Virus record (IMG/VR): IMGVR_UViG_3300025679_000005
Origin: a virus
Taxonomy: Duplodnaviria > Caudoviricetes
Strand: one strand, 5' to 3'
DNA: 64,000 bases
Made by a program: the position numbers and the translations under genes. This document shows positions 2,718-55,466 of the stretch, in pieces. The notes beneath the pieces are model-generated. The model was not told the origin of the DNA, did not search any database, and saw nothing but the letters and a program-made list of their open reading frames with translations. The first letter of the stretch is position 1. Every line of letters begins with the position of its first letter.

Positions 2718-3856
2718 ACTCTGGAATTCGGCTGGGGCTTCATCCCCAAGACCGCGCTCAAACCGAGCGCTTTTATATTCAATGCAGCGTTCTGATCTCT
2801 GTCCATGACGAGACCACAGACAGGGCAGCTATGGACGCGGTCCCGAAGTCCCTTGGGGACGACGGACCCGCACGCATGACACCTCTGTGTGGTCCCTCTT
2901 GGATCTACCCCTACTGCTAACTTGCCAGCTTCTTCCGCTTTGCATTTTAGGCAGTGAATGGTGATTGACCAGGATGCATCTGTGATTGATTTGGCTAGAT
3001 ATGAGCCTTCGATCATCTGGGCTATTGAAAGGTCTTCGTAGCAGACGATGTCATTCAATTCGAAAAGACTCTTAGCGAGCTTCCTAGCGTGATCTAGGCG
3101 CTGATTCTTGATATGGGCGTGAGCCCGCTGGACTAGGATCTTAGCTCGCTTCCGACTGTTGCTGCCCCGGCGCTTGCGTTGCAGAGCGCGTTGGCGCCTG
3201 GCCAATAGATCCTGACCGGCCTTGAAGAAGCGAGGGTTCTCGATCGTTTCACCAGAATCGAGGGTGCTGAAATGAGCCAACCCGAGGTCGATACCGACGG
3301 ACTTCGTGGGGTCGACAACGACCTCGGGAGCGGCTCCGAGGTCACACTGAAAGATCACGAACCAGCGATTACCCTCTCTGCGAACTGAGATGTCCTTGAG
3401 CATTCCCTTGTGGGGGCGGTACTGGTTGAACTTGATTAGGCCTAACTTAGGGATTTTGACTCGGGCTGAATAGCCACTGGCCTTTGGGATCGGCTCAGAG
3501 AACTGTCCCATGAGCGAGAAAGAGTTATACCGTTTAGAGCTACGGAAGCGAGGGAATCCCGGCGTTTCGCCAGACTTTAGACGACGGAAGAATGCCTTGT
3601 AGGCGTGGTCAAGGCGCTTGAGAGGGGTCCTGAGGATAGTGGCTGGAATCGTCCTGAATTCAGGGTCTTGGGATCGAATGAGGGTCAGGGATTTCTGTTG
3701 ATCGTATCTGGTCAAACTTTTGCCGAATCTACGATAGCAGTTGATTCGCTCTTCCAACGCCCCGTTGTAGAGGCTACAACACAAGCGAAGCCAGTGTAGC
3801 AGAATTACTTCTTGGGTCTTCGTCGGATGCAGCGGGTATCGATAAGAACGGATCAT
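2684..3856 (-). mobile_element. tnpB: TnpB RNA-guided endonuclease (IS200/IS605 family), no TnpA
   Basis: N-term YRYPLHPT, GIDLG, YEDL, CxxC-CPxC zinc ribbon, RDQNAALN. Confidence 0.95.
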
Positions 3857-10440: not shown

Positions 10441-10581
10441 TAATAAGGACCCTAAGGCCCACCCAAAAAAGATCGCATGGCCGCCCTTGGAGACGATCTT
10501 AGACCGTCTCAAGACAACCCCGTTCACTGTGCTGGCTAGAGAACTTGGAGTATCCGACAATGCCATACGAAAGCATATCCG

Positions 10582-10674
10582 TGCCCACGGTGGGATTCGA
10601 ACCCACGTTCCGAATTCGTTAGAATTTCACGCAAATTTAGAATTTGCTGCTCTGGACCACTGAGCGACATGGGC
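10582..10674 (-). tRNA. amber suppressor tRNA (anticodon CTA), class II, A73
   Basis: GCCCATG/CGTGGGC acceptor; GCAAA-TTCTAAA-TTTGC anticodon arm; GTGGG-TTCGAAT-CCCAC T arm. Confidence 0.85.
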
Positions 10675-41482: not shown

Positions 41483-41809
41483 CCCAAGAAACCCGCCGAA
41501 AGGTTATAGCTATACCAATCGGGATTACGGGGATGGTGAAGAGTGGAATGCCGGAGTCCGGATGGACGTTGATGGCGCCCCTGGGTAGCACCCAGTATCT
41601 CTAGTGTGGGTTCGATTCCCGCACCTTGGACTAAGGAGTCTCCACTCCTAGAAGCATACACGCAAATAGTAGGTTCGAATCCTGCCTCCTTCACAAGATG
41701 CCTCAATCTCTGAGACCTCTTGTGAAGGAGACGCCCAATGGCCGGGCACCAGACGGTAAATCTGGCTCGCAAGAGCAATCCCTGCTTCACTACTCGGAGA
41801 CTCTTTTAT

Positions 41810-49504: not shown

Positions 49505-49552
49505 AAAGACTACCCCAAGCTGAATCTAAGACTCCTTTTGAAATGTACTACG

Positions 49553-49661
49553 ATGTGGGCGAGAGCCCTGTGCAGGTTCGATTCCTGCCCTCCCAGCCAA
49601 TGTTCGTCAGTTCGCTAACGAGCATTACTGGGAGGTGGCCCAATATGGCAAGAGGCGCATC
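49553..49661 (+). ncRNA. circularly permuted tRNA-like unit 1 (YrlA-like topology)
   Basis: T arm, then CCTCCCA-G-CCA, linker hairpin, TGGGAGG, D arm; closed by GATGT/GCATC. Confidence 0.65.
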
Positions 49662-49744
49662 ACCGGTATCTGTCAAGTTTAGGTTTGGGTTCAAGCTGAG
49701 TTACAGTGCTGCGTTCCACCTCTCAAATGGTCATCGGCAATCCT

Positions 49745-49838
49745 CCGTAAATGTTGGTTCGATTCCGACCTTCCCAGCCATGCTCGTCAGAGCACTAACG
49801 GTCATGGCTGGGAAGTTAGCTAACGGCAAGCTGTGCGG
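49745..49838 (+). ncRNA. circularly permuted tRNA-like unit 2
   Basis: T arm, CTTCCCA-G-CCA, linker, TGGGAAG, D arm; closed by CCGTA/TGCGG. Confidence 0.65.
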
Positions 49839-49937
49839 GCTTTAGAGCTGATCGATGATCTTAAACGCCGTGGTGGATTCTAAGCAGTCTTAAACAATCC
49901 GTCCGGGGAGCCGGCTACGCTCCTCGGACACCTAATG

Positions 49938-52262: not shown

Positions 52263-53049
52263 CAGAAAGGCTATTGCCAGAAATAGGAAGTCAAGCCGAA
52301 TGATCACAGCTTTTGACAGAACCCAATGTCTTTCTGCTTGGGCGGAGGAGGGTGGTATTGGGTATGCCACTATCCGTATGAGGCTCTCCGCCGGCTGGGC
52401 TCCAGAAGTGGCAGTAACACTCCCACCAGGGGCCCACCGTGTTCAGCGGACTACTGAAGGGTACTCCGGTTTTTCTCAATTGAAGGAAGTTCTGACACAG
52501 TACCGTTCGACAGAGATGGTGCCGGTGATCTGCACTAGATGTGCCGCCCAGTTCTTTAGGACGAAGGAGGAACTGGCAAAAGCTCACAAGAACCGACATG
52601 GGATATTTTGCTCCTCTTTTTGTGGGGCGAAGTATCCGTCAGAAAAGAATATTTTAGAGGTAGATGGCATTAAGGGCAAGATCTGTAGAGCTTGCAATAC
52701 CTGGAAGGTTCTGCCTAAAATAGGTAACAAAAGGGTATGTGACACATGCCTAAATACAAGACCTAGATCCAGATATACCGACTACAAGAGACATTCTAAG
52801 TACGGCTTCGCCTTAACATTTGATGAGTTCAATAGCCTCATATTCCAGGCTTGCTGGTATTGTGGAACTCGCGCAGGCATTGACGGTAACGGTATTGACC
52901 GTATCGATAGCCTGAAAGGGTACTCCACAGATAATTGTCTACCTTGTTGCAAGGGATGCAATAGGTCGAAAAGTAACCATTCTCAGCAAGAGTTCTTGGA
53001 ACGGTGCCATAGAATAGCGCAGAGGCATCCAATGGAGAGTACATGTTAG
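52252..53049 (+). CDS. HNH-type endonuclease inserted in the Ubl cassette
   Basis: CWYCG...GIDRIDSLKGY...NCLPCCKGCN; overlaps both neighbours. Confidence 0.85.
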   Translation: MSIDRKAIARNRKSSRMITAFDRTQCLSAWAEEGGIGYATIRMRLSAGWAPEVAVTLPPGAHRVQRTTEGYSGFSQLKEVLTQYRSTEMVPVICTRCAAQFFRTKEELAKAHKNRHGIFCSSFCGAKYPSEKNILEVDGIKGKICRACNTWKVLPKIGNKRVCDTCLNTRPRSRYTDYKRHSKYGFALTFDEFNSLIFQACWYCGTRAGIDGNGIDRIDSLKGYSTDNCLPCCKGCNRSKSNHSQQEFLERCHRIAQRHPMESTC

Positions 53050-53444
53050 AGACAGGTGTTTTAGTTGGAACTAGTGGTCAAATTTTAGCTTGGCACCTTC
53101 CTCCGGGGCGTACTAGTGGGTACCTTCCCGATAGCCGTAATCTGTGGGAAATTCTGTGGGAGCACCGAAAGGGGCTCTACGGGTTTGCTCACAGCCACCC
53201 CGGCTCCGGGCCCGTCGCCCCCTCGAATGAGGACCTGACGACGTTCTCGGCTGTTGACAGGGCTTTGGGTCAGCGGCTGGTCTGGCCGATTTCTTCAGAA
53301 GATCACGTGGCCTTCTTTACTTGGAAGGGGCCTGGGCCGTATGACTACGCACACGCTGGACAGTTCAATGCGGATGACGCACCGGACTGGATGCCAGCTG
53401 AATGGCTCCTGAAATTGCGGGAGCTTTCTAACTACAACAAATGA
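53043..53444 (+). CDS. JAB/MPN+ metallopeptidase
   Basis: AHSHP...PSNED (HxH-x7-S-x2-D). Confidence 0.85.
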   Translation: MLETGVLVGTSGQILAWHLPPGRTSGYLPDSRNLWEILWEHRKGLYGFAHSHPGSGPVAPSNEDLTTFSAVDRALGQRLVWPISSEDHVAFFTWKGPGPYDYAHAGQFNADDAPDWMPAEWLLKLRELSNYNK

Positions 53445-53454
53445 CGGAGAAAAC

Positions 53455-53715
53455 ATGGACATTGAGACATTTCAAGCACGGGTGAACATCACCTACAACG
53501 GATCCAACGGGGATCTCCCGGATCCAGTCACCTTCGACTCGACGGATGCAGCCATCCGCGGGTTCATCACGGAAGCTGTGCGTGCAGGCAGCGTTCCTGG
53601 TATAGCGGCCGATCCGAACGCAGACTTCACGGACTTCGTGATCGATCGGTTCACAGCGAATGAGGTAACGCCCTTTAATCGCCTGATGGCCCGGCCCAAG
53701 ACTCCCTTCGGCTGA
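53455..53715 (+). CDS. ubiquitin-like (beta-grasp) small protein ending in Gly
   Basis: 86 aa, C-term RPKTPFG, sits between JAB and E1; GGAGA RBS. Confidence 0.6.
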   Translation: MDIETFQARVNITYNGSNGDLPDPVTFDSTDAAIRGFITEAVRAGSVPGIAADPNADFTDFVIDRFTANEVTPFNRLMARPKTPFG

Positions 53716-53753
53716 GCCCTTACCTCTTCTGAAACCCGACCGTATAGAGCAAC

Positions 53754-54326
53754 ATGAAACGAATCACTGTCGTAGGCGTCGGAGCCTTAGGTTCCCACGT
53801 CGTCATGTTGCTCCGTAATGTCGGGGCAGACCTTCGAGTCATCGACTTCGATCGGGTCGAGCAGAAGAACGTTCTGTCTCAGTTTCACGGGAAGACTCAG
53901 GTGGGCAAGAACAAGTGCCAATCCCTGGCTCAGACCATGAACTTCCTGTTCGGGACGAAGATGATCATGTTCCCTCATAGGCTCACCTCGGAGAACGACA
54001 CTCAGCTATTGGGCGGCTCCGACCTCCTCATCGACTGCTTGGACAACGGGACAGCGAGGAAGGTGGTTCAGGACTTCGCTCGCAAGACCAAGACCCCGTG
54101 CTTGCATGGAGCTTTGGCTGCGAACGGAGGCTTCGGTCGAGTCGTCTGGGATGCCAAATTCGAGATTGATGAGGCCTCGGGAGGAGCCGCCACCTGCGAA
54201 GACGGCGCTCATCTGCCGTTCATTTCGATCACGGCTAGCTACTTGGCCAAGGCCGCCCAGGACTTCCTGGTCCACGGCAAGACCACGGGCTACCAAATTC
54301 ACCCGCAGGGAGTGTTCGCCGTCTGA
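53754..54326 (+). CDS. ThiF/E1-like adenylation enzyme
   Basis: VVGVGALGSH, DFDRVEQKN, IDCLDN; candidate Cys in ATCE. Confidence 0.9.
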   Translation: MKRITVVGVGALGSHVVMLLRNVGADLRVIDFDRVEQKNVLSQFHGKTQVGKNKCQSLAQTMNFLFGTKMIMFPHRLTSENDTQLLGGSDLLIDCLDNGTARKVVQDFARKTKTPCLHGALAANGGFGRVVWDAKFEIDEASGGAATCEDGAHLPFISITASYLAKAAQDFLVHGKTTGYQIHPQGVFAV

Positions 54327-54383: not shown

Positions 54384-55088
54384 ATGGAAGAGACGCGAAT
54401 TTGCAAGAAGTGTGGCAAAGACAAGCTGATTACGAAGTTTCAGCTCGCACGAAGCGGGAAAAGTCGCGGTCGTACCTGTATGGCCTGCATCCACAAGGAT
54501 TGGTATCATAGCAAAGGTAAAGCCAGAAGCGCTGAGCGGCTGGCTAAGCAGGATGCTACAGAGCCTCTACGCACTTGCAACACCTGCGGCCTCGAAAAGA
54601 ATATCGTCAACTTCGGTGAGGTAGGCGGTGGATATCGGCGGAGAACGTGCAAGTTATGTTGCTCCAGAGCAGATGAGACGACGTTCAAATTAAATGGAGA
54701 TGTGCTCTTACGGAAAGGCACTAGGAGTGCTCAAGAAAAAGTAAGAAGAGTATGCGACATCCCTAAGACAATATATACGGATTGCCGTGGGTCAGACCGT
54801 AAGAAAGGATTCCCAGACTCAGACTTGACAGTGGAGATCATCGCCAAGTTGTTATACGGGGGTTGTCGTTATTGCGGGGAGACCGATCTCCGGATGACTT
54901 TGGATCGAATAGACACTAGCCAAGGTCATAGTGTAGCGAATGTCGTGCCAGCCTGCCTTCGATGCAACTATCATAGAGGTTCCATGCCTTACGAGGCTTG
55001 GCTGCATATTGCTCCGGCTGTCAGGTCGGCTCGCGAGCTGGGATTGTTCGGTACCTGGAGGTCCAAACCTTTTAACAAAAAGTCTTGA
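54384..55088 (+). CDS. HNH-type endonuclease
   Basis: CRYCG...TLDRID...NVVPACLRCN; paralog of 39097-39810. Confidence 0.85.
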   Translation: MEETRICKKCGKDKLITKFQLARSGKSRGRTCMACIHKDWYHSKGKARSAERLAKQDATEPLRTCNTCGLEKNIVNFGEVGGGYRRRTCKLCCSRADETTFKLNGDVLLRKGTRSAQEKVRRVCDIPKTIYTDCRGSDRKKGFPDSDLTVEIIAKLLYGGCRYCGETDLRMTLDRIDTSQGHSVANVVPACLRCNYHRGSMPYEAWLHIAPAVRSARELGLFGTWRSKPFNKKS

Positions 55089-55131
55089 CGCCACCTACCT
55101 TGCCGGTGTACATACTTCAAGTCACGTTTCG

Positions 55132-55261
55132 CCCGGTCACTGAGGGTAGGGTTCCCTCGCCAAATTTTGGTTTTGGAAAAACAACCGCTCTGTCGCCTCG
55201 TCCCAGTAATGGGACACCAGACAGTGCTTACAAGCTGAGAGTTCGATTCTCTCACCGGGCA
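55132..55261 (+). ncRNA. oversized tRNA-like RNA
   Basis: GCCCGGT/ACCGGGC acceptor, D-like arm, T arm, about 75-nt central region. Confidence 0.5.
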
Positions 55262-55265
55262 CTCT

Positions 55266-55408
55266 GTTACGGTCACCAGCTCTAACCCTACAAGCAATAT
55301 ACACGGGTTCGATTCCCGTTGTCCCCTTCGGGGGATATCGTCTAGTGGTTAGGACATTTTCTATTCAAGAAAAACAACGCAAACCTGGTTAGAGCACTCG
55401 ACCGTAAC
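55266..55408 (+). ncRNA. permuted tRNA-Glu-like domain inside a long closing stem
   Basis: Order is T arm, TTCG-capped acceptor, D arm, anticodon-like arm; ends pair as GTTACGGTC/GACCGTAAC and CTCTAACC/GGTTAGAG. Confidence 0.7.
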
Positions 55409-55417
55409 TGAAATCTT

Positions 55418-55449
55418 AGAAAGCCTCCTTTCGGGGGCTTTCTGCTTTT
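55418..55449 (+). terminator. intrinsic terminator
   Basis: AGAAAGCC-TCCTTTCGGG-GGCTTTCT followed by GCTTTT. Confidence 0.65.
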
Positions 55450-55466
55450 GTGGTGTAGGTGGTAAT

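What the first reader, a model, noticed from the sequence alone, without database searches (positions are those of the whole stretch)
55266..55408. Complete tRNA-Glu cloverleaf, permuted at the variable loop and mounted on a Y-RNA-like stalk
Seen: T arm, acceptor capped by TTCG (no free CCA), Glu/Asp-type D arm GTCTAGTGGTTAGGAC, and an anticodon-like arm with TTC. All are enclosed by a two-part stem with an internal loop (GGTC-ACCAG / CACTC-GACC) and followed by a terminator. Known: YrlA mimics lack the anticodon arm, and the Ro60 site is a similar bulged stem. The bacterial GNCGAA consensus is absent here. Inference: an unchargeable full tRNA mimic, possibly a decoy for anticodon nucleases.
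Basis: partly seen in the sequence, partly recalled or inferred. Interest (0 to 1): 0.75.

Follow-up and report, generated by a model that had tools for sequence, protein, structure and literature searches.

The report
Permuted tRNA mimic on Y-RNA-like stalk
This is a real small-RNA gene of a huge peat phage, a complete tRNA cloverleaf with its ends moved into a conserved stalk, and it belongs to a widespread, apparently undescribed family that in related phages and myxobacteria is encoded beside a distant look-alike of the Ro60 RNA-binding protein, so it is most likely a new variant of Y RNA and not a decoding tRNA.

Summary

It is not a standard YrlA. There is no Rfam match, the arm order differs, GNCGAA is absent, and no TROVE gene occurs in our 155 kb or in a complete 529 kb relative.

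It is one member of a family. My covariance model finds 84 full-length members in related huge phages and in bacteria, mostly Myxococcota. 94.5% of cells are paired, 33 of 37 pairs show double changes, and the Levitt pair covaries.

The shared part is the stalk: two helices around a 4x4 loop whose 3' side reads ACUC. The neighbour at 55131-55261 carries the same stalk, closed, as the variable arm of a normal-order tRNA-Gln-like gene. The finding is its exact circular permutation.

In 29 of 80 bacterial loci the RNA lies just upstream of a ~586-aa protein, and all phage relatives encode that protein. Its predicted fold matches Ro60 best, but sequence homology is not shown. The gene is not in the part of our phage I could read.

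The anticodon-nuclease decoy idea has no support. Earlier notes of this scan reported the same family elsewhere in this genome and on other DNA; I re-derived their main claims here.

The parts
55131..55261 (+). Unpermuted sister RNA: a normal-order tRNA-Gln(UUG)-like gene. Acceptor 55131-37 / 55254-60, D-like arm 55142-58, anticodon arm 55160-76, T arm 55237-53, A73 at 55261. Its variable arm is the closed stalk module 55190-55224: inner helix CUGUC/GACAG, loops GCCUC/ACCA, outer helix GUCCCA/UGGGAC, GUAA cap 55206-09.
   Evidence: Parsed from the sequence. ARAGORN calls tRNA-Gln(ttg) once the stalk is removed and calls nothing with it in place. The fold has z -3.4.
55266..55274 (+). Outer stalk helix, 5' strand (pairs with 55400-55408)
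   Evidence: MFE fold. Helix 1 of the family: 8 of 9 pairs show double changes.
55275..55278 (+). 5' side of the stalk's internal loop (ACCA); variable in the family
55279..55287 (+). Inner stalk helix, 5' strand (pairs with 55387-55395)
   Evidence: helix 2: 6 of 7 pairs show double changes
55288..55302 (+). 5' linker CUACAAGCAAUAUAC, carrying the family motif YACAHGC. Its last base, C55302, is the Levitt partner (position 48) of G15.
55303..55319 (+). T arm (ACGGG-UUCGAUU-CCCGU)
   Evidence: (partial tRNA model match)
55320..55337 (+). Acceptor stem closed into a hairpin: 3' strand UGUCCCC, UUCG cap, 5' strand GGGGAUA. No free end and no CCA.
   Evidence: Family caps are mostly 4-5 nt, and only 4 of 84 start with NCCA.
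55340..55355 (+). D arm GUCU-AGUGGUUA-GGAC, with A14, G15, G18 and G19
55357..55373 (+). Anticodon-like arm: 5-bp stem and 7-nt loop UAUUCAA (A33, triplet UUC, A37, A38)
   Evidence: Family helix 7: 5 of 5 pairs show double changes. 73 of 84 loops are 7 nt.
55374..55386 (+). 3' linker ACAACGCAAACCU (family motif ..CAACGCNAAC..)
55387..55408 (+). Inner stalk 3' strand, the conserved ACUC loop side (55396-55399), and the outer stalk 3' strand
   Evidence: ACUC occurs in 81 of 84 members, but the search pattern partly demanded it.
55417..55452 (+). Intrinsic terminator: 12-pair stem, UUUC loop, T tract. It ends the two-RNA unit.
   Evidence: also weak terminator-type Rfam alignments
41635..41804 (+). 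Second permuted copy of the same family in this window. It has the same stalk and linker motifs, a 12-bp capped acceptor, and an anticodon-like loop CGGUAAA (GUA).
   Evidence: R1 scores it 58.8 bits, E 2.4e-12; fold

Best explanation
The element is a stable non-coding RNA of the Y-RNA type. Its stalk, two helices around a conserved 4x4 internal loop plus two A/C-rich linkers, is the handle for a ring-shaped Ro60-like protein with a vWA domain. Its head is a complete but capped tRNA body that folds into the tRNA L-shape, and it probably recruits or occupies a tRNA-binding enzyme or substrate, as YrlA is thought to do for Ro60/Rsr. It is probably transcribed together with its unpermuted sister (55131-55261) and ended by the terminator at 55417-55452. 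It most likely arose from a sister-type gene by tandem duplication, with the new ends falling in the tip of the variable-arm stalk. Shown here: the structure, its conservation, the tRNA-like tertiary signature, and the genetic linkage of family members to the protein in bacteria and in related phages. Inferred: that the protein binds the stalk, that the protein is a true Ro60 relative, that our phage encodes it in the part I could not read, and what the particle does.
For: Fold: z -6.9. Family alignment of 84 members: 94.5% of cells paired, 33 of 37 pairs with double changes, covariation score 0.664 against 0.18 for shuffles and at most 0.10 when partners are slid. tRNA-like 3D signature: 55 of 82 members have G15:C48 or A15:U48 against 28 expected, GG is in the D loop of 82 of 84, and U8 and A14 are common. 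One stalk carries heads in several arm orders, which marks the stalk as the constant functional module. In 29 of 80 bacterial loci a ~586-aa protein follows the RNA on the same strand at a median gap of 34 nt. All four phage relatives that hold the RNA family encode that protein (E 1e-141 to 1e-148) within a few kb of RNA copies. Two further viral contigs found through the protein each hold a full-length RNA 3-5 kb downstream. The protein has a helical N-terminal region and a C-terminal vWA domain, the Ro60 layout. Its top 13 Foldseek PDB matches are Ro60/Rsr/TROVE chains over the full length. The N-terminal region alone again finds only Ro60/TROVE at probability 0.97 or more. Caps are short hairpin loops without CCA in most members.
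Against: The partner gene is absent from the 155 kb I can read, which CheckV rates 32% complete. Only a generic vWA ORF is there. Homology of the partner to Ro60 is not shown by sequence: no TROVE match and hhalign probability 7.8%. The structural matches have low TM (0.25-0.5) and high rmsd (7-12 A). 51 of 80 bacterial loci show no partner within the 8 kb fetched; some of these are tRNA-rich contigs that may be phage DNA. Binding and expression are untested. The bacterial loci were retrieved with a pattern that demanded three family motifs, and alignment A4 is fitted to the model, so motif invariance is partly built in.
Confidence: 0.55

Rival explanations
1. It is a permuted tRNA gene that matures into a working tRNA. 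The stalk would be a cleavage-and-ligation site, as the bulge-helix-bulge is in archaeal and algal permuted tRNAs. Joining there would leave a long variable arm, and RNase P plus 3' trimming and CCA addition would then open the cap.
For: The closed and open stalk forms sit side by side, mirroring the intron / split / permuted relation of archaeal tRNA genes. Most family loops are canonical anticodon loops (C/U32, U33, R37) with many different triplets. A few caps carry NCCA straight after the acceptor 3' strand. The phages encode RNA ligases: RtcB in G006/G007 and an Rnl2-type ligase in G000 and G009. M. smegmatis YrlA can be cut by RNase P and receive CCA (PMC4201824).
Against: The loop is a symmetric 4x4 loop, not a bulge-helix-bulge. 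No splicing endonuclease family was found in any of the five phage records. Our cap is the very stable C(UUCG)G tetraloop without CCA, and only 4 of 84 caps start with NCCA. Our loop has A33. The linkers would leave a variable region far longer than in any known tRNA. In bacteria the RNA is an operon partner of a Ro60-like protein, not part of the tRNA set.
Confidence: 0.1
2. It is a decoy or sponge. The capped tRNA body would soak up host anticodon nucleases or other tRNA-targeting defence enzymes and so protect the phage's tRNAs. This could work with or without a bound protein.
For: It lies in a 40-gene phage tRNA island, and such islands are thought to counter tRNA-cleaving defences (PMC7824862). 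It is a full cloverleaf with an anticodon-like loop, unlike YrlA. Paralogs carry different loop triplets.
Against: There is no direct evidence. A33 in our copy breaks the U-turn that anticodon nucleases see in real substrates. The same family is common in bacterial chromosomes next to the partner gene, where a phage counter-defence role does not apply. The conserved part is the stalk, not the loop.
Confidence: 0.12
3. It is an ordinary YrlA that binds canonical Ro60 (TROVE) supplied by the host or by the unread part of the phage genome. The different arm order would be a trivial variation.
For: The 3' stalk sequence GCACUCGACC resembles the CACUUG of canonical phage elements such as L002 and, from my own recollection of the sequence, the Ro-binding strand of human Y1 RNA. 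The Rfam YrlA model is narrow: a canonical-looking element from a TROVE-positive jumbo phage gets no match, and a Bxz1-type mycobacteriophage YrlA next to Ro scores only 36 of the 69 bits needed. Other huge phages do pair canonical YrlA-like RNAs with TROVE proteins.
Against: A complete 529 kb relative that carries several family copies has no TROVE gene but does have the vWA partner. GNCGAA is absent. The family's stalk loop (NNNN / ACUC) is a different and much tighter motif than the large loops of canonical phage YrlAs.
Confidence: 0.08
4. It is a structural or processing element with no function in trans. It could be a fossil of a tandem tRNA duplication, or a leader-trailer helix that serves as an RNase III-type processing or stabilising signal for the neighbouring tRNA-like gene.
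For: It sits 4 nt after a tRNA-like gene and before a terminator. A free-standing closed stalk hairpin follows a tRNA directly in a relative, at L075:3714-3747.
Against: All seven helices, including the capped acceptor and the anticodon-like arm, are kept by compensatory changes across phyla, and the Levitt pair covaries. A fossil or a bare processing helix would not keep the whole tRNA body.
Confidence: 0.05

Closest known systems
YrlA-type bacterial and mycobacteriophage Y RNAs bound by Ro60/Rsr (Rfam RF02553; Chen et al. 2014, PMC4201824; Wang et al. 2018, bioRxiv 10.1101/312249)
   Same: The RNA's two ends pair into a bulged stalk. The head is a tRNA mimic with T arm, capped acceptor and D arm in that order, and it keeps tRNA tertiary nucleotides including the Levitt pair. 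Family members are encoded next to, and on the same strand as, a ring-plus-vWA protein. It occurs in bacteria and in large phages.
   Different: In YrlA the stalk replaces the anticodon stem and there is no anticodon loop. Here the stalk takes the variable-arm position and a full anticodon-like arm follows the D arm. The GNCGAA motif is absent, and the stalk loop is a tight 4x4 loop with ACUC. There is no match to RF02553. The linked protein has no TROVE match by sequence.
Deinococcus radiodurans Yrn1 (Y RNA with D-like and T-like loops in normal order; PMC4201824)
   Same: It shows that Ro60-bound RNAs can carry the tRNA-like head in a different arm order from YrlA. Some members of the present family have that order (D, anticodon arm, T) on the same stalk.
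   Different: Per the paper, Yrn1 lacks a full D arm, has a 6-nt loop in its 'anticodon' arm, and has no V arm. Our element is a complete five-part cloverleaf in yet another permutation.
Circularly permuted tRNA genes of Cyanidioschyzon merolae and other algae, and split tRNA genes of archaea (own knowledge; see PMC3400036 and PMC4238349)
   Same: The 3' half (T arm, acceptor 3' strand) is encoded before the 5' half. The termini pair into a helix. Closed and open versions of the same junction helix coexist.
   Different: Those use a bulge-helix-bulge cut by the splicing endonuclease, and they have a real spacer between the acceptor strands. Here there is a symmetric 4x4 loop, no such endonuclease was found, and a UUCG tetraloop closes the acceptor. 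No permuted tRNA gene of this kind is known to me in bacteria or phages.
Ro60 / Rsr proteins (PDB 1YVP, 2I91, 2NVO, 9NEN; Thermus phage phiLo Ro60 9L5Y, PMC12135203). This is the comparison for the linked protein.
   Same: Similar length (~586 aa against 500-600). A helical-repeat N-terminal region is followed by a vWA domain with a DxSGS MIDAS motif at the same relative position. Ro60 chains are the best structural matches for the whole protein and for the N-terminal part alone. The gene lies beside tRNA-mimic RNAs.
   Different: There is no Pfam TROVE match, hhalign probability is only 7.8%, and identity is about 13-15% in structural alignments. TM-scores are low, so a closed ring is not demonstrated.

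Membership tests
YrlA (Rfam RF02553) | Scores at or above the family's gathering threshold (69 bits) | tested here: not met
   No YrlA match at the locus even at E<=10. The whole-record search puts its weak hits on ordinary tRNAs only. Caveat: the model is narrow. A canonical-looking phage element gets no match, and a Bxz1-type YrlA next to Ro reaches only 36 bits.
YrlA (Rfam RF02553) | Arm order stalk, V region, T arm, capped acceptor, D arm, stalk; the stalk stands for the anticodon stem and there is no anticodon loop | tested here: not met
   The order here is stalk, T, capped acceptor, D, anticodon-like arm, stalk.
YrlA (Rfam RF02553) | Acceptor stem closed by a loop, with no free CCA end | tested here: met
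   A 7-bp stem is closed by UUCG at 55327-55330.
YrlA (Rfam RF02553) | T and D arms keep the nucleotides of the tRNA elbow and core (G18 G19, U54 U55 C56, A58, U8, A14, covarying 15:48) | tested here: met
   The sequence shows these nucleotides. The family-wide 15:48 pair is compatible in 55 of 82 members against 28 expected, and GG is in 82 of 84 D loops.
YrlA (Rfam RF02553) | GNCGAAN0-1G motif near the 5' end | tested here: not met
   The 5' stalk reads GGUCACCAGC. The family's 5' loop is variable (GGCC, AAUC, AACC and others).
YrlA (Rfam RF02553) | Encoded within about 4 kb of a TROVE/Ro60 gene on the same strand | tested here: not met
   There is no TROVE match in the 155 kb record or in four relatives' records, including a complete 529 kb one. 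The record is only 32% complete, so absence from the whole phage is not shown.
Stalked tRNA-mimic family defined here (model R1), linked to a vWA protein | Two-helix stalk with a 4x4 loop closed by C-G and G-C, 3' side ACUC, and linkers with YACAHGC and CAACGCNAAC | tested here: met
   Our element was used to build R1, so its own score is not a test. The window's second copy (58.8 bits) and about 80 others are independent hits.
Stalked tRNA-mimic family defined here (model R1), linked to a vWA protein | A gene of the partner family (alignment A3) in the same genome, usually nearby | tested here: inconclusive
   It is absent from the 155 kb available. It is present in all four relatives' records (G006 and G007 are near-duplicates), in two further viral contigs, and in 29 of 80 bacterial loci.
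Permuted tRNA genes (algal/archaeal type) | The 3' half is encoded upstream of the 5' half and the termini pair | tested here: met
Permuted tRNA genes (algal/archaeal type) | A bulge-helix-bulge motif at the junction, and a splicing endonuclease to cut it | tested here: not met
   The junction is a symmetric 4x4 internal loop. PF01974 is absent from five phage records. The host genome is unknown.
Permuted tRNA genes (algal/archaeal type) | A mature, linear, CCA-ended, aminoacylated product | not testable with these tools
   No RNA data could be obtained.
Ro60/TROVE (for the linked protein) | TROVE domain detectable by sequence | tested here: not met
   Pfam finds only vWA families. hhalign against five Ro60 proteins gives probability 7.8%.
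Ro60/TROVE (for the linked protein) | A helical-repeat ring followed by a vWA domain with a MIDAS motif | tested here: inconclusive
   The layout and the DxSGS motif are present. Ro60 chains are the top Foldseek matches for the whole protein (E about 1e-7) and for the N-terminal part alone (E 1.5e-3 to 3e-2, probability 0.97 or more). But TM is 0.25-0.5, and VIA gives Z about 13 with rmsd 7-9 A, no better than the vWA domain alone.

The most novel reading that the evidence does not exclude
A large, undescribed branch of Ro60/Y-RNA-type particles may exist in myxobacteria, other soil bacteria and huge phages. In it a sequence-unrecognisable Ro60-like ring protein would dock on a compact ACUC-loop stalk that can carry a complete tRNA body in any circular permutation. 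That includes normal-order, open-ended forms such as 55131-55261, which might still be processed and charged, so the particle could tether real, decodable tRNAs as well as capped mimics.
Probability: 0.3. Interest if true: 0.8.

Novelty: new variant of a known kind. Interest (0 to 1): 0.6.

Why it matters
Y RNAs and Ro60 are conserved from bacteria to humans, yet the job of the tRNA-like head of bacterial Y RNAs is still unknown.

This family offers new material for that question:
- It has full cloverleaf heads, including an anticodon-like arm, with many different loop triplets.
- It shows the same stalk in open (permuted) and closed (variable-arm) forms side by side, a living picture of how a Y RNA can arise from a tRNA gene by duplication.
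- Its partner protein escapes the TROVE model, which suggests that Ro60-type surveillance particles are more widespread than sequence searches show.
- Members occur in cultivable Myxococcus and Corallococcus, so the particle can be studied at the bench.

For phage biology, it adds a recurrent non-tRNA component to the tRNA islands of huge phages.

Tried and rejected
- Expression: no RNA holder is listed among public runs. The only full holder is a peat metagenome that may be the source sample.
- Megablast of 3 kb around the locus against cultured phages: no match.
- Relatives through the 343-aa downstream protein: none.
- Rfam at gathering and permissive thresholds on the locus, on canonical-looking viral elements and on six bacterial loci: only tRNA matches, nothing for this family.
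- A strict descriptor for closed stalks found only our neighbour and one free-standing hairpin in L075; other hits look like chance.
- Partner protein in our record: the profile search found nothing. A local hmmsearch gave one 15-bit hit, a generic vWA ORF at G000:70536-71171 with no N-terminal region. I rejected it as the partner.
- hhalign of the partner family against Ro60 proteins: probability 7.8%, not significant.
- The 'tRNA-Glu' identity: the body is not closest to the phage's own tRNA-Glu genes.
- Kink-turn and bulge-helix-bulge readings of the stalk loop were rejected on sequence: no tandem G-A pairs and no staggered 3-nt bulges.
- The 2020 Ro60 review (PMC10870794) is not held. The phiLo Ro60 paper has no text on YrlA or tRNA-like RNAs. 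Paper searches for permuted tRNAs in phages, and for Ro60 with Myxococcus or with vWA, found nothing that describes this family.
- Complex prediction was not used, because it does not take RNA.

Full report
**Setting**

The window is the minus strand of G000:78137-142136, a 155,231-base IMG/VR virus record. CheckV rates it 32% complete. The only run that holds it in full is a peat metagenome. The window holds 40 tRNA genes, so the finding lies at the edge of a huge-phage tRNA island. It sits in a 370-nt non-coding gap between an HNH-like ORF (54384-55088) and a small ORF that starts near 55459.

The parts are an outer helix, an internal loop, an inner helix, a 15-nt linker, a T arm, an acceptor stem closed by UUCG, a D arm, a 5-bp arm with a 7-nt loop (UAUUCAA), a 13-nt linker, and the returning stalk strands.

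- The minimum-energy fold is exactly this structure: -53.4 kcal/mol, z -6.9, and none of 200 shuffles folds as well.
- Re-joined in normal order, the parts are called tRNA-Glu(ttc) by ARAGORN.
- A 12-pair terminator with a T tract follows at 55417-55452.

Two corrections apply. Loop position 33 is A, not U. And the body is no nearer to the phage's own tRNA-Glu genes than to other tRNAs, so the 'Glu' label is thin.

**It is not a standard YrlA**

- Rfam gives no YrlA match here even at E<=10. Over the whole record the YrlA model touches only ordinary tRNAs.
- By the literature, YrlA runs stalk, V region, T, capped acceptor, D, stalk. Its stalk stands for the anticodon stem, and 'YrlA lacks the anticodon loop'.
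- Here the extra arm follows the D arm, so the stalk occupies the variable-arm position.
- GNCGAA is absent.
- No TROVE gene is in the 155 kb.

The Rfam failure alone means little. A canonical-looking element from a TROVE-positive 480 kb phage also gets no match. A Bxz1-type YrlA lying next to Ro reaches only 36 of the 69 bits needed.

**It belongs to a family**

Homologs of the upstream HNH-like ORF led to four viral records, G006 to G009. G006 and G007 are near-duplicates. In these I found elements with our arm order and shared motifs. Three sequences already gave 20 compensatory pairs of 38. I built a covariance model, R1, from them. It found further full-length copies in all four records.

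The aligned copies show one constant stalk and a variable head. The stalk has an outer helix, a 4x4 loop closed by C-G and G-C whose 3' side reads ACUC or CCUC, an inner helix, and A/C-rich linkers. The head comes in several arm orders:
- our order;
- the YrlA order;
- a form with an added V hairpin;
- a normal order with no acceptor hairpin.

**The neighbour is the unpermuted twin**

The stretch 55131-55261 has an open 7-bp acceptor, a D-like arm, an anticodon arm (loop UUUUGGU), a T arm and A73. Between the anticodon arm and the T arm sits the same stalk module, closed by GUAA: CUGUC / GCCUC / GUCCCA, then GUAA, then UGGGAC / ACCA / GACAG. The same linker motifs flank it.

ARAGORN calls tRNA-Gln(ttg) once the stalk is cut out, and calls nothing with it in place. 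Read around the circle, the finding has exactly this order of parts, opened at the tip of the stalk and closed at the acceptor. A tandem duplication of a sister-type gene would produce it. This fits the dimeric-tRNA origin proposed for YrlA.

A second permuted copy lies at 41635-41804.

**The family is also bacterial**

A strict three-motif pattern hit more than 120 loci in the species genome collection. Most are Myxococcota, including cultured Myxococcus, Corallococcus and Pyxidicoccus. Some are Gemmatimonadota and Acidobacteriota. R1 matched 84 elements at full length over 61 sources, often in tandem.

- On that alignment 94.5% of cells are paired.
- 33 of 37 pairs show changes on both sides.
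- The covariation score is 0.664, against 0.18 for shuffles and at most 0.10 when partners are slid.
- The Levitt pair covaries: 55 of 82 members are compatible against 28 expected. GG is in 82 of 84 D loops.
- 73 of 84 anticodon-like loops have 7 nt, mostly C/U32, U33, R37, with many different triplets.
- Caps are mostly 4-5 nt, and only 4 start with NCCA.

Caveats: the pattern demanded ACACGC, the T loop and CACTCGG, and the alignment is fitted to the model. The invariance of those motifs is therefore partly built in.

**A linked protein**

I clustered all ORFs in the 80 bacterial loci that reached my scripts. One family occurs in 29 loci, always on the RNA's strand, at a median 34 nt from it and downstream of it.

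- It is about 586 aa, with a C-terminal vWA domain. The first ~390 residues have no Pfam or NCBIfam family, and there is no TROVE match.
- A profile of 17 members (A3) finds clear homologs in all four phage relatives (E 1e-141 to 1e-148), each within a few kb of RNA copies. It finds none in our 155 kb.
- The only weak local hit in our record is a generic vWA ORF.
- Two more viral contigs reached through the protein each hold a full-length RNA 3-5 kb downstream.

**Is the protein Ro60-like?**

The AlphaFold model has mean pLDDT 74 and shows a helical N-terminal region plus a vWA fold.

- Foldseek ranks 13 Ro60/Rsr/TROVE chains first, aligned over 520-610 columns at E about 1e-7. vWA-only matches come after them.
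- VIA-align gives Ro60 chains Z about 12.5-13 over ~400 residues, but at rmsd 7-9 A. That is no better than the vWA domain alone.
- The N-terminal region folded alone (pLDDT 79) again finds only Ro60/TROVE at probability 0.97 or more, with E 1.5e-3 to 3e-2. Unrelated helical repeats follow at probability 0.4 or less. TM is 0.25-0.29.
- hhalign against five Ro60 proteins is not significant, at probability 7.8%.

So the layout and the best fold matches point to Ro60, but homology is not established.

**Reading**

The constant, covarying stalk, the swappable tRNA head and the operon-like link to a ring-plus-vWA protein make a Y-RNA-type particle the best explanation (confidence 0.55).

- The processing rival is weakened by the symmetric loop, the missing endonuclease, the UUCG cap, A33 and the bacterial operon context. 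RNA ligases are present, however.
- The decoy idea has no evidence for it.
- A canonical YrlA/Ro60 pairing is unlikely, because the complete 529 kb relative lacks TROVE but has the vWA partner.

**Earlier notes of this scan**

Notes consulted after my own first reading had already reported the window's other copy and, on other genomes, the same kind of family with a 'hidden' Ro60 relative. I treated them as leads. I re-derived the bacterial distribution, the linked protein and its fold matches independently. The sequence-level claim of Ro60 kinship did not hold in my test.

I found no paper or Rfam family that describes this RNA family.

Noticed in passing
window 41635-41804: A second permuted stalked tRNA mimic of the same family. 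It has a 12-bp capped acceptor and loop CGGUAAA, and it sits inside the tRNA array.
   Followed up: partly
window 49540-49929: Two tandem T-arm-plus-long-capped-hairpin modules lie downstream of an ORF. Earlier notes call this a double tRNA mimic beside a DUF7873 gene. It shows no ACUC stalk in my fold, so it seems to be a different family.
   Followed up: partly
window 55086-55115: A TTGACG, then an 18-nt spacer and TACATA, lie about 15 nt upstream of the sister RNA. This is a possible promoter for the two-RNA unit, but it does not meet the scan tool's criteria.
   Followed up: no
window 53043-54326: JAB-like (PF14464, weak) and ThiF/E1-like (PF00899, 1.5e-23) genes lie just upstream of the HNH-like ORF. 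This is a ubiquitin-like cassette next to the RNA locus.
   Followed up: no
window 54384-55088: An HNH-like 234-aa ORF with no Pfam match. Its homologs (49-52% identity) lie next to stalk RNAs in four related viral records. It is possibly a homing endonuclease of tRNA islands.
   Followed up: partly
window 10581-10674 (minus strand): A tRNA with anticodon CUA and a long variable insert, which ARAGORN calls tRNA-Pyl. It is probably an amber suppressor.
   Followed up: no
L075:3714-3747: A free-standing closed stalk hairpin (loops ACUC / AUCG) lies directly after the CCA end of a tRNA gene. The stalk module can therefore occur without a tRNA head of its own.
   Followed up: no
L076:10548-10780: A long (~230 nt) acceptor-plus-T-arm element with CACCUCG motifs lies just upstream of that phage's permuted copy. 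It may be the counterpart of our sister RNA, but I could not parse it.
   Followed up: partly
L062:4518-4651: A viral contig matches Rfam ceN72-3_ceN74-2 above its gathering score (46 bits against 38). To my knowledge that family contains nematode stem-bulge RNAs, which are regarded as Y RNA homologs.
   Followed up: no
L113 and L131 (Labilithrix and Myxococcales MAG contigs): More than 20 tRNA genes plus 3-4 stalk RNAs lie within 8 kb. These 'bacterial' contigs may be phage or prophage tRNA islands.
   Followed up: no
G009:116020-116316 (L105): Only the last ~90 residues of RtcB match, inside a 138-aa open frame, in an otherwise complete 529 kb phage. This is a fragment or a split gene.
   Followed up: no
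L078 about 3000-3200 (same element as L018): A canonical-order YrlA-like RNA lies directly downstream of a TROVE gene on the same strand in a viral contig. It is a textbook Ro60/Y RNA pair that still fails the Rfam YrlA threshold.
   Followed up: partly
L044:9117-9601: A GOLLD RNA (195 bits) lies in a phage tRNA island that also holds a capped-acceptor tRNA mimic.
   Followed up: no
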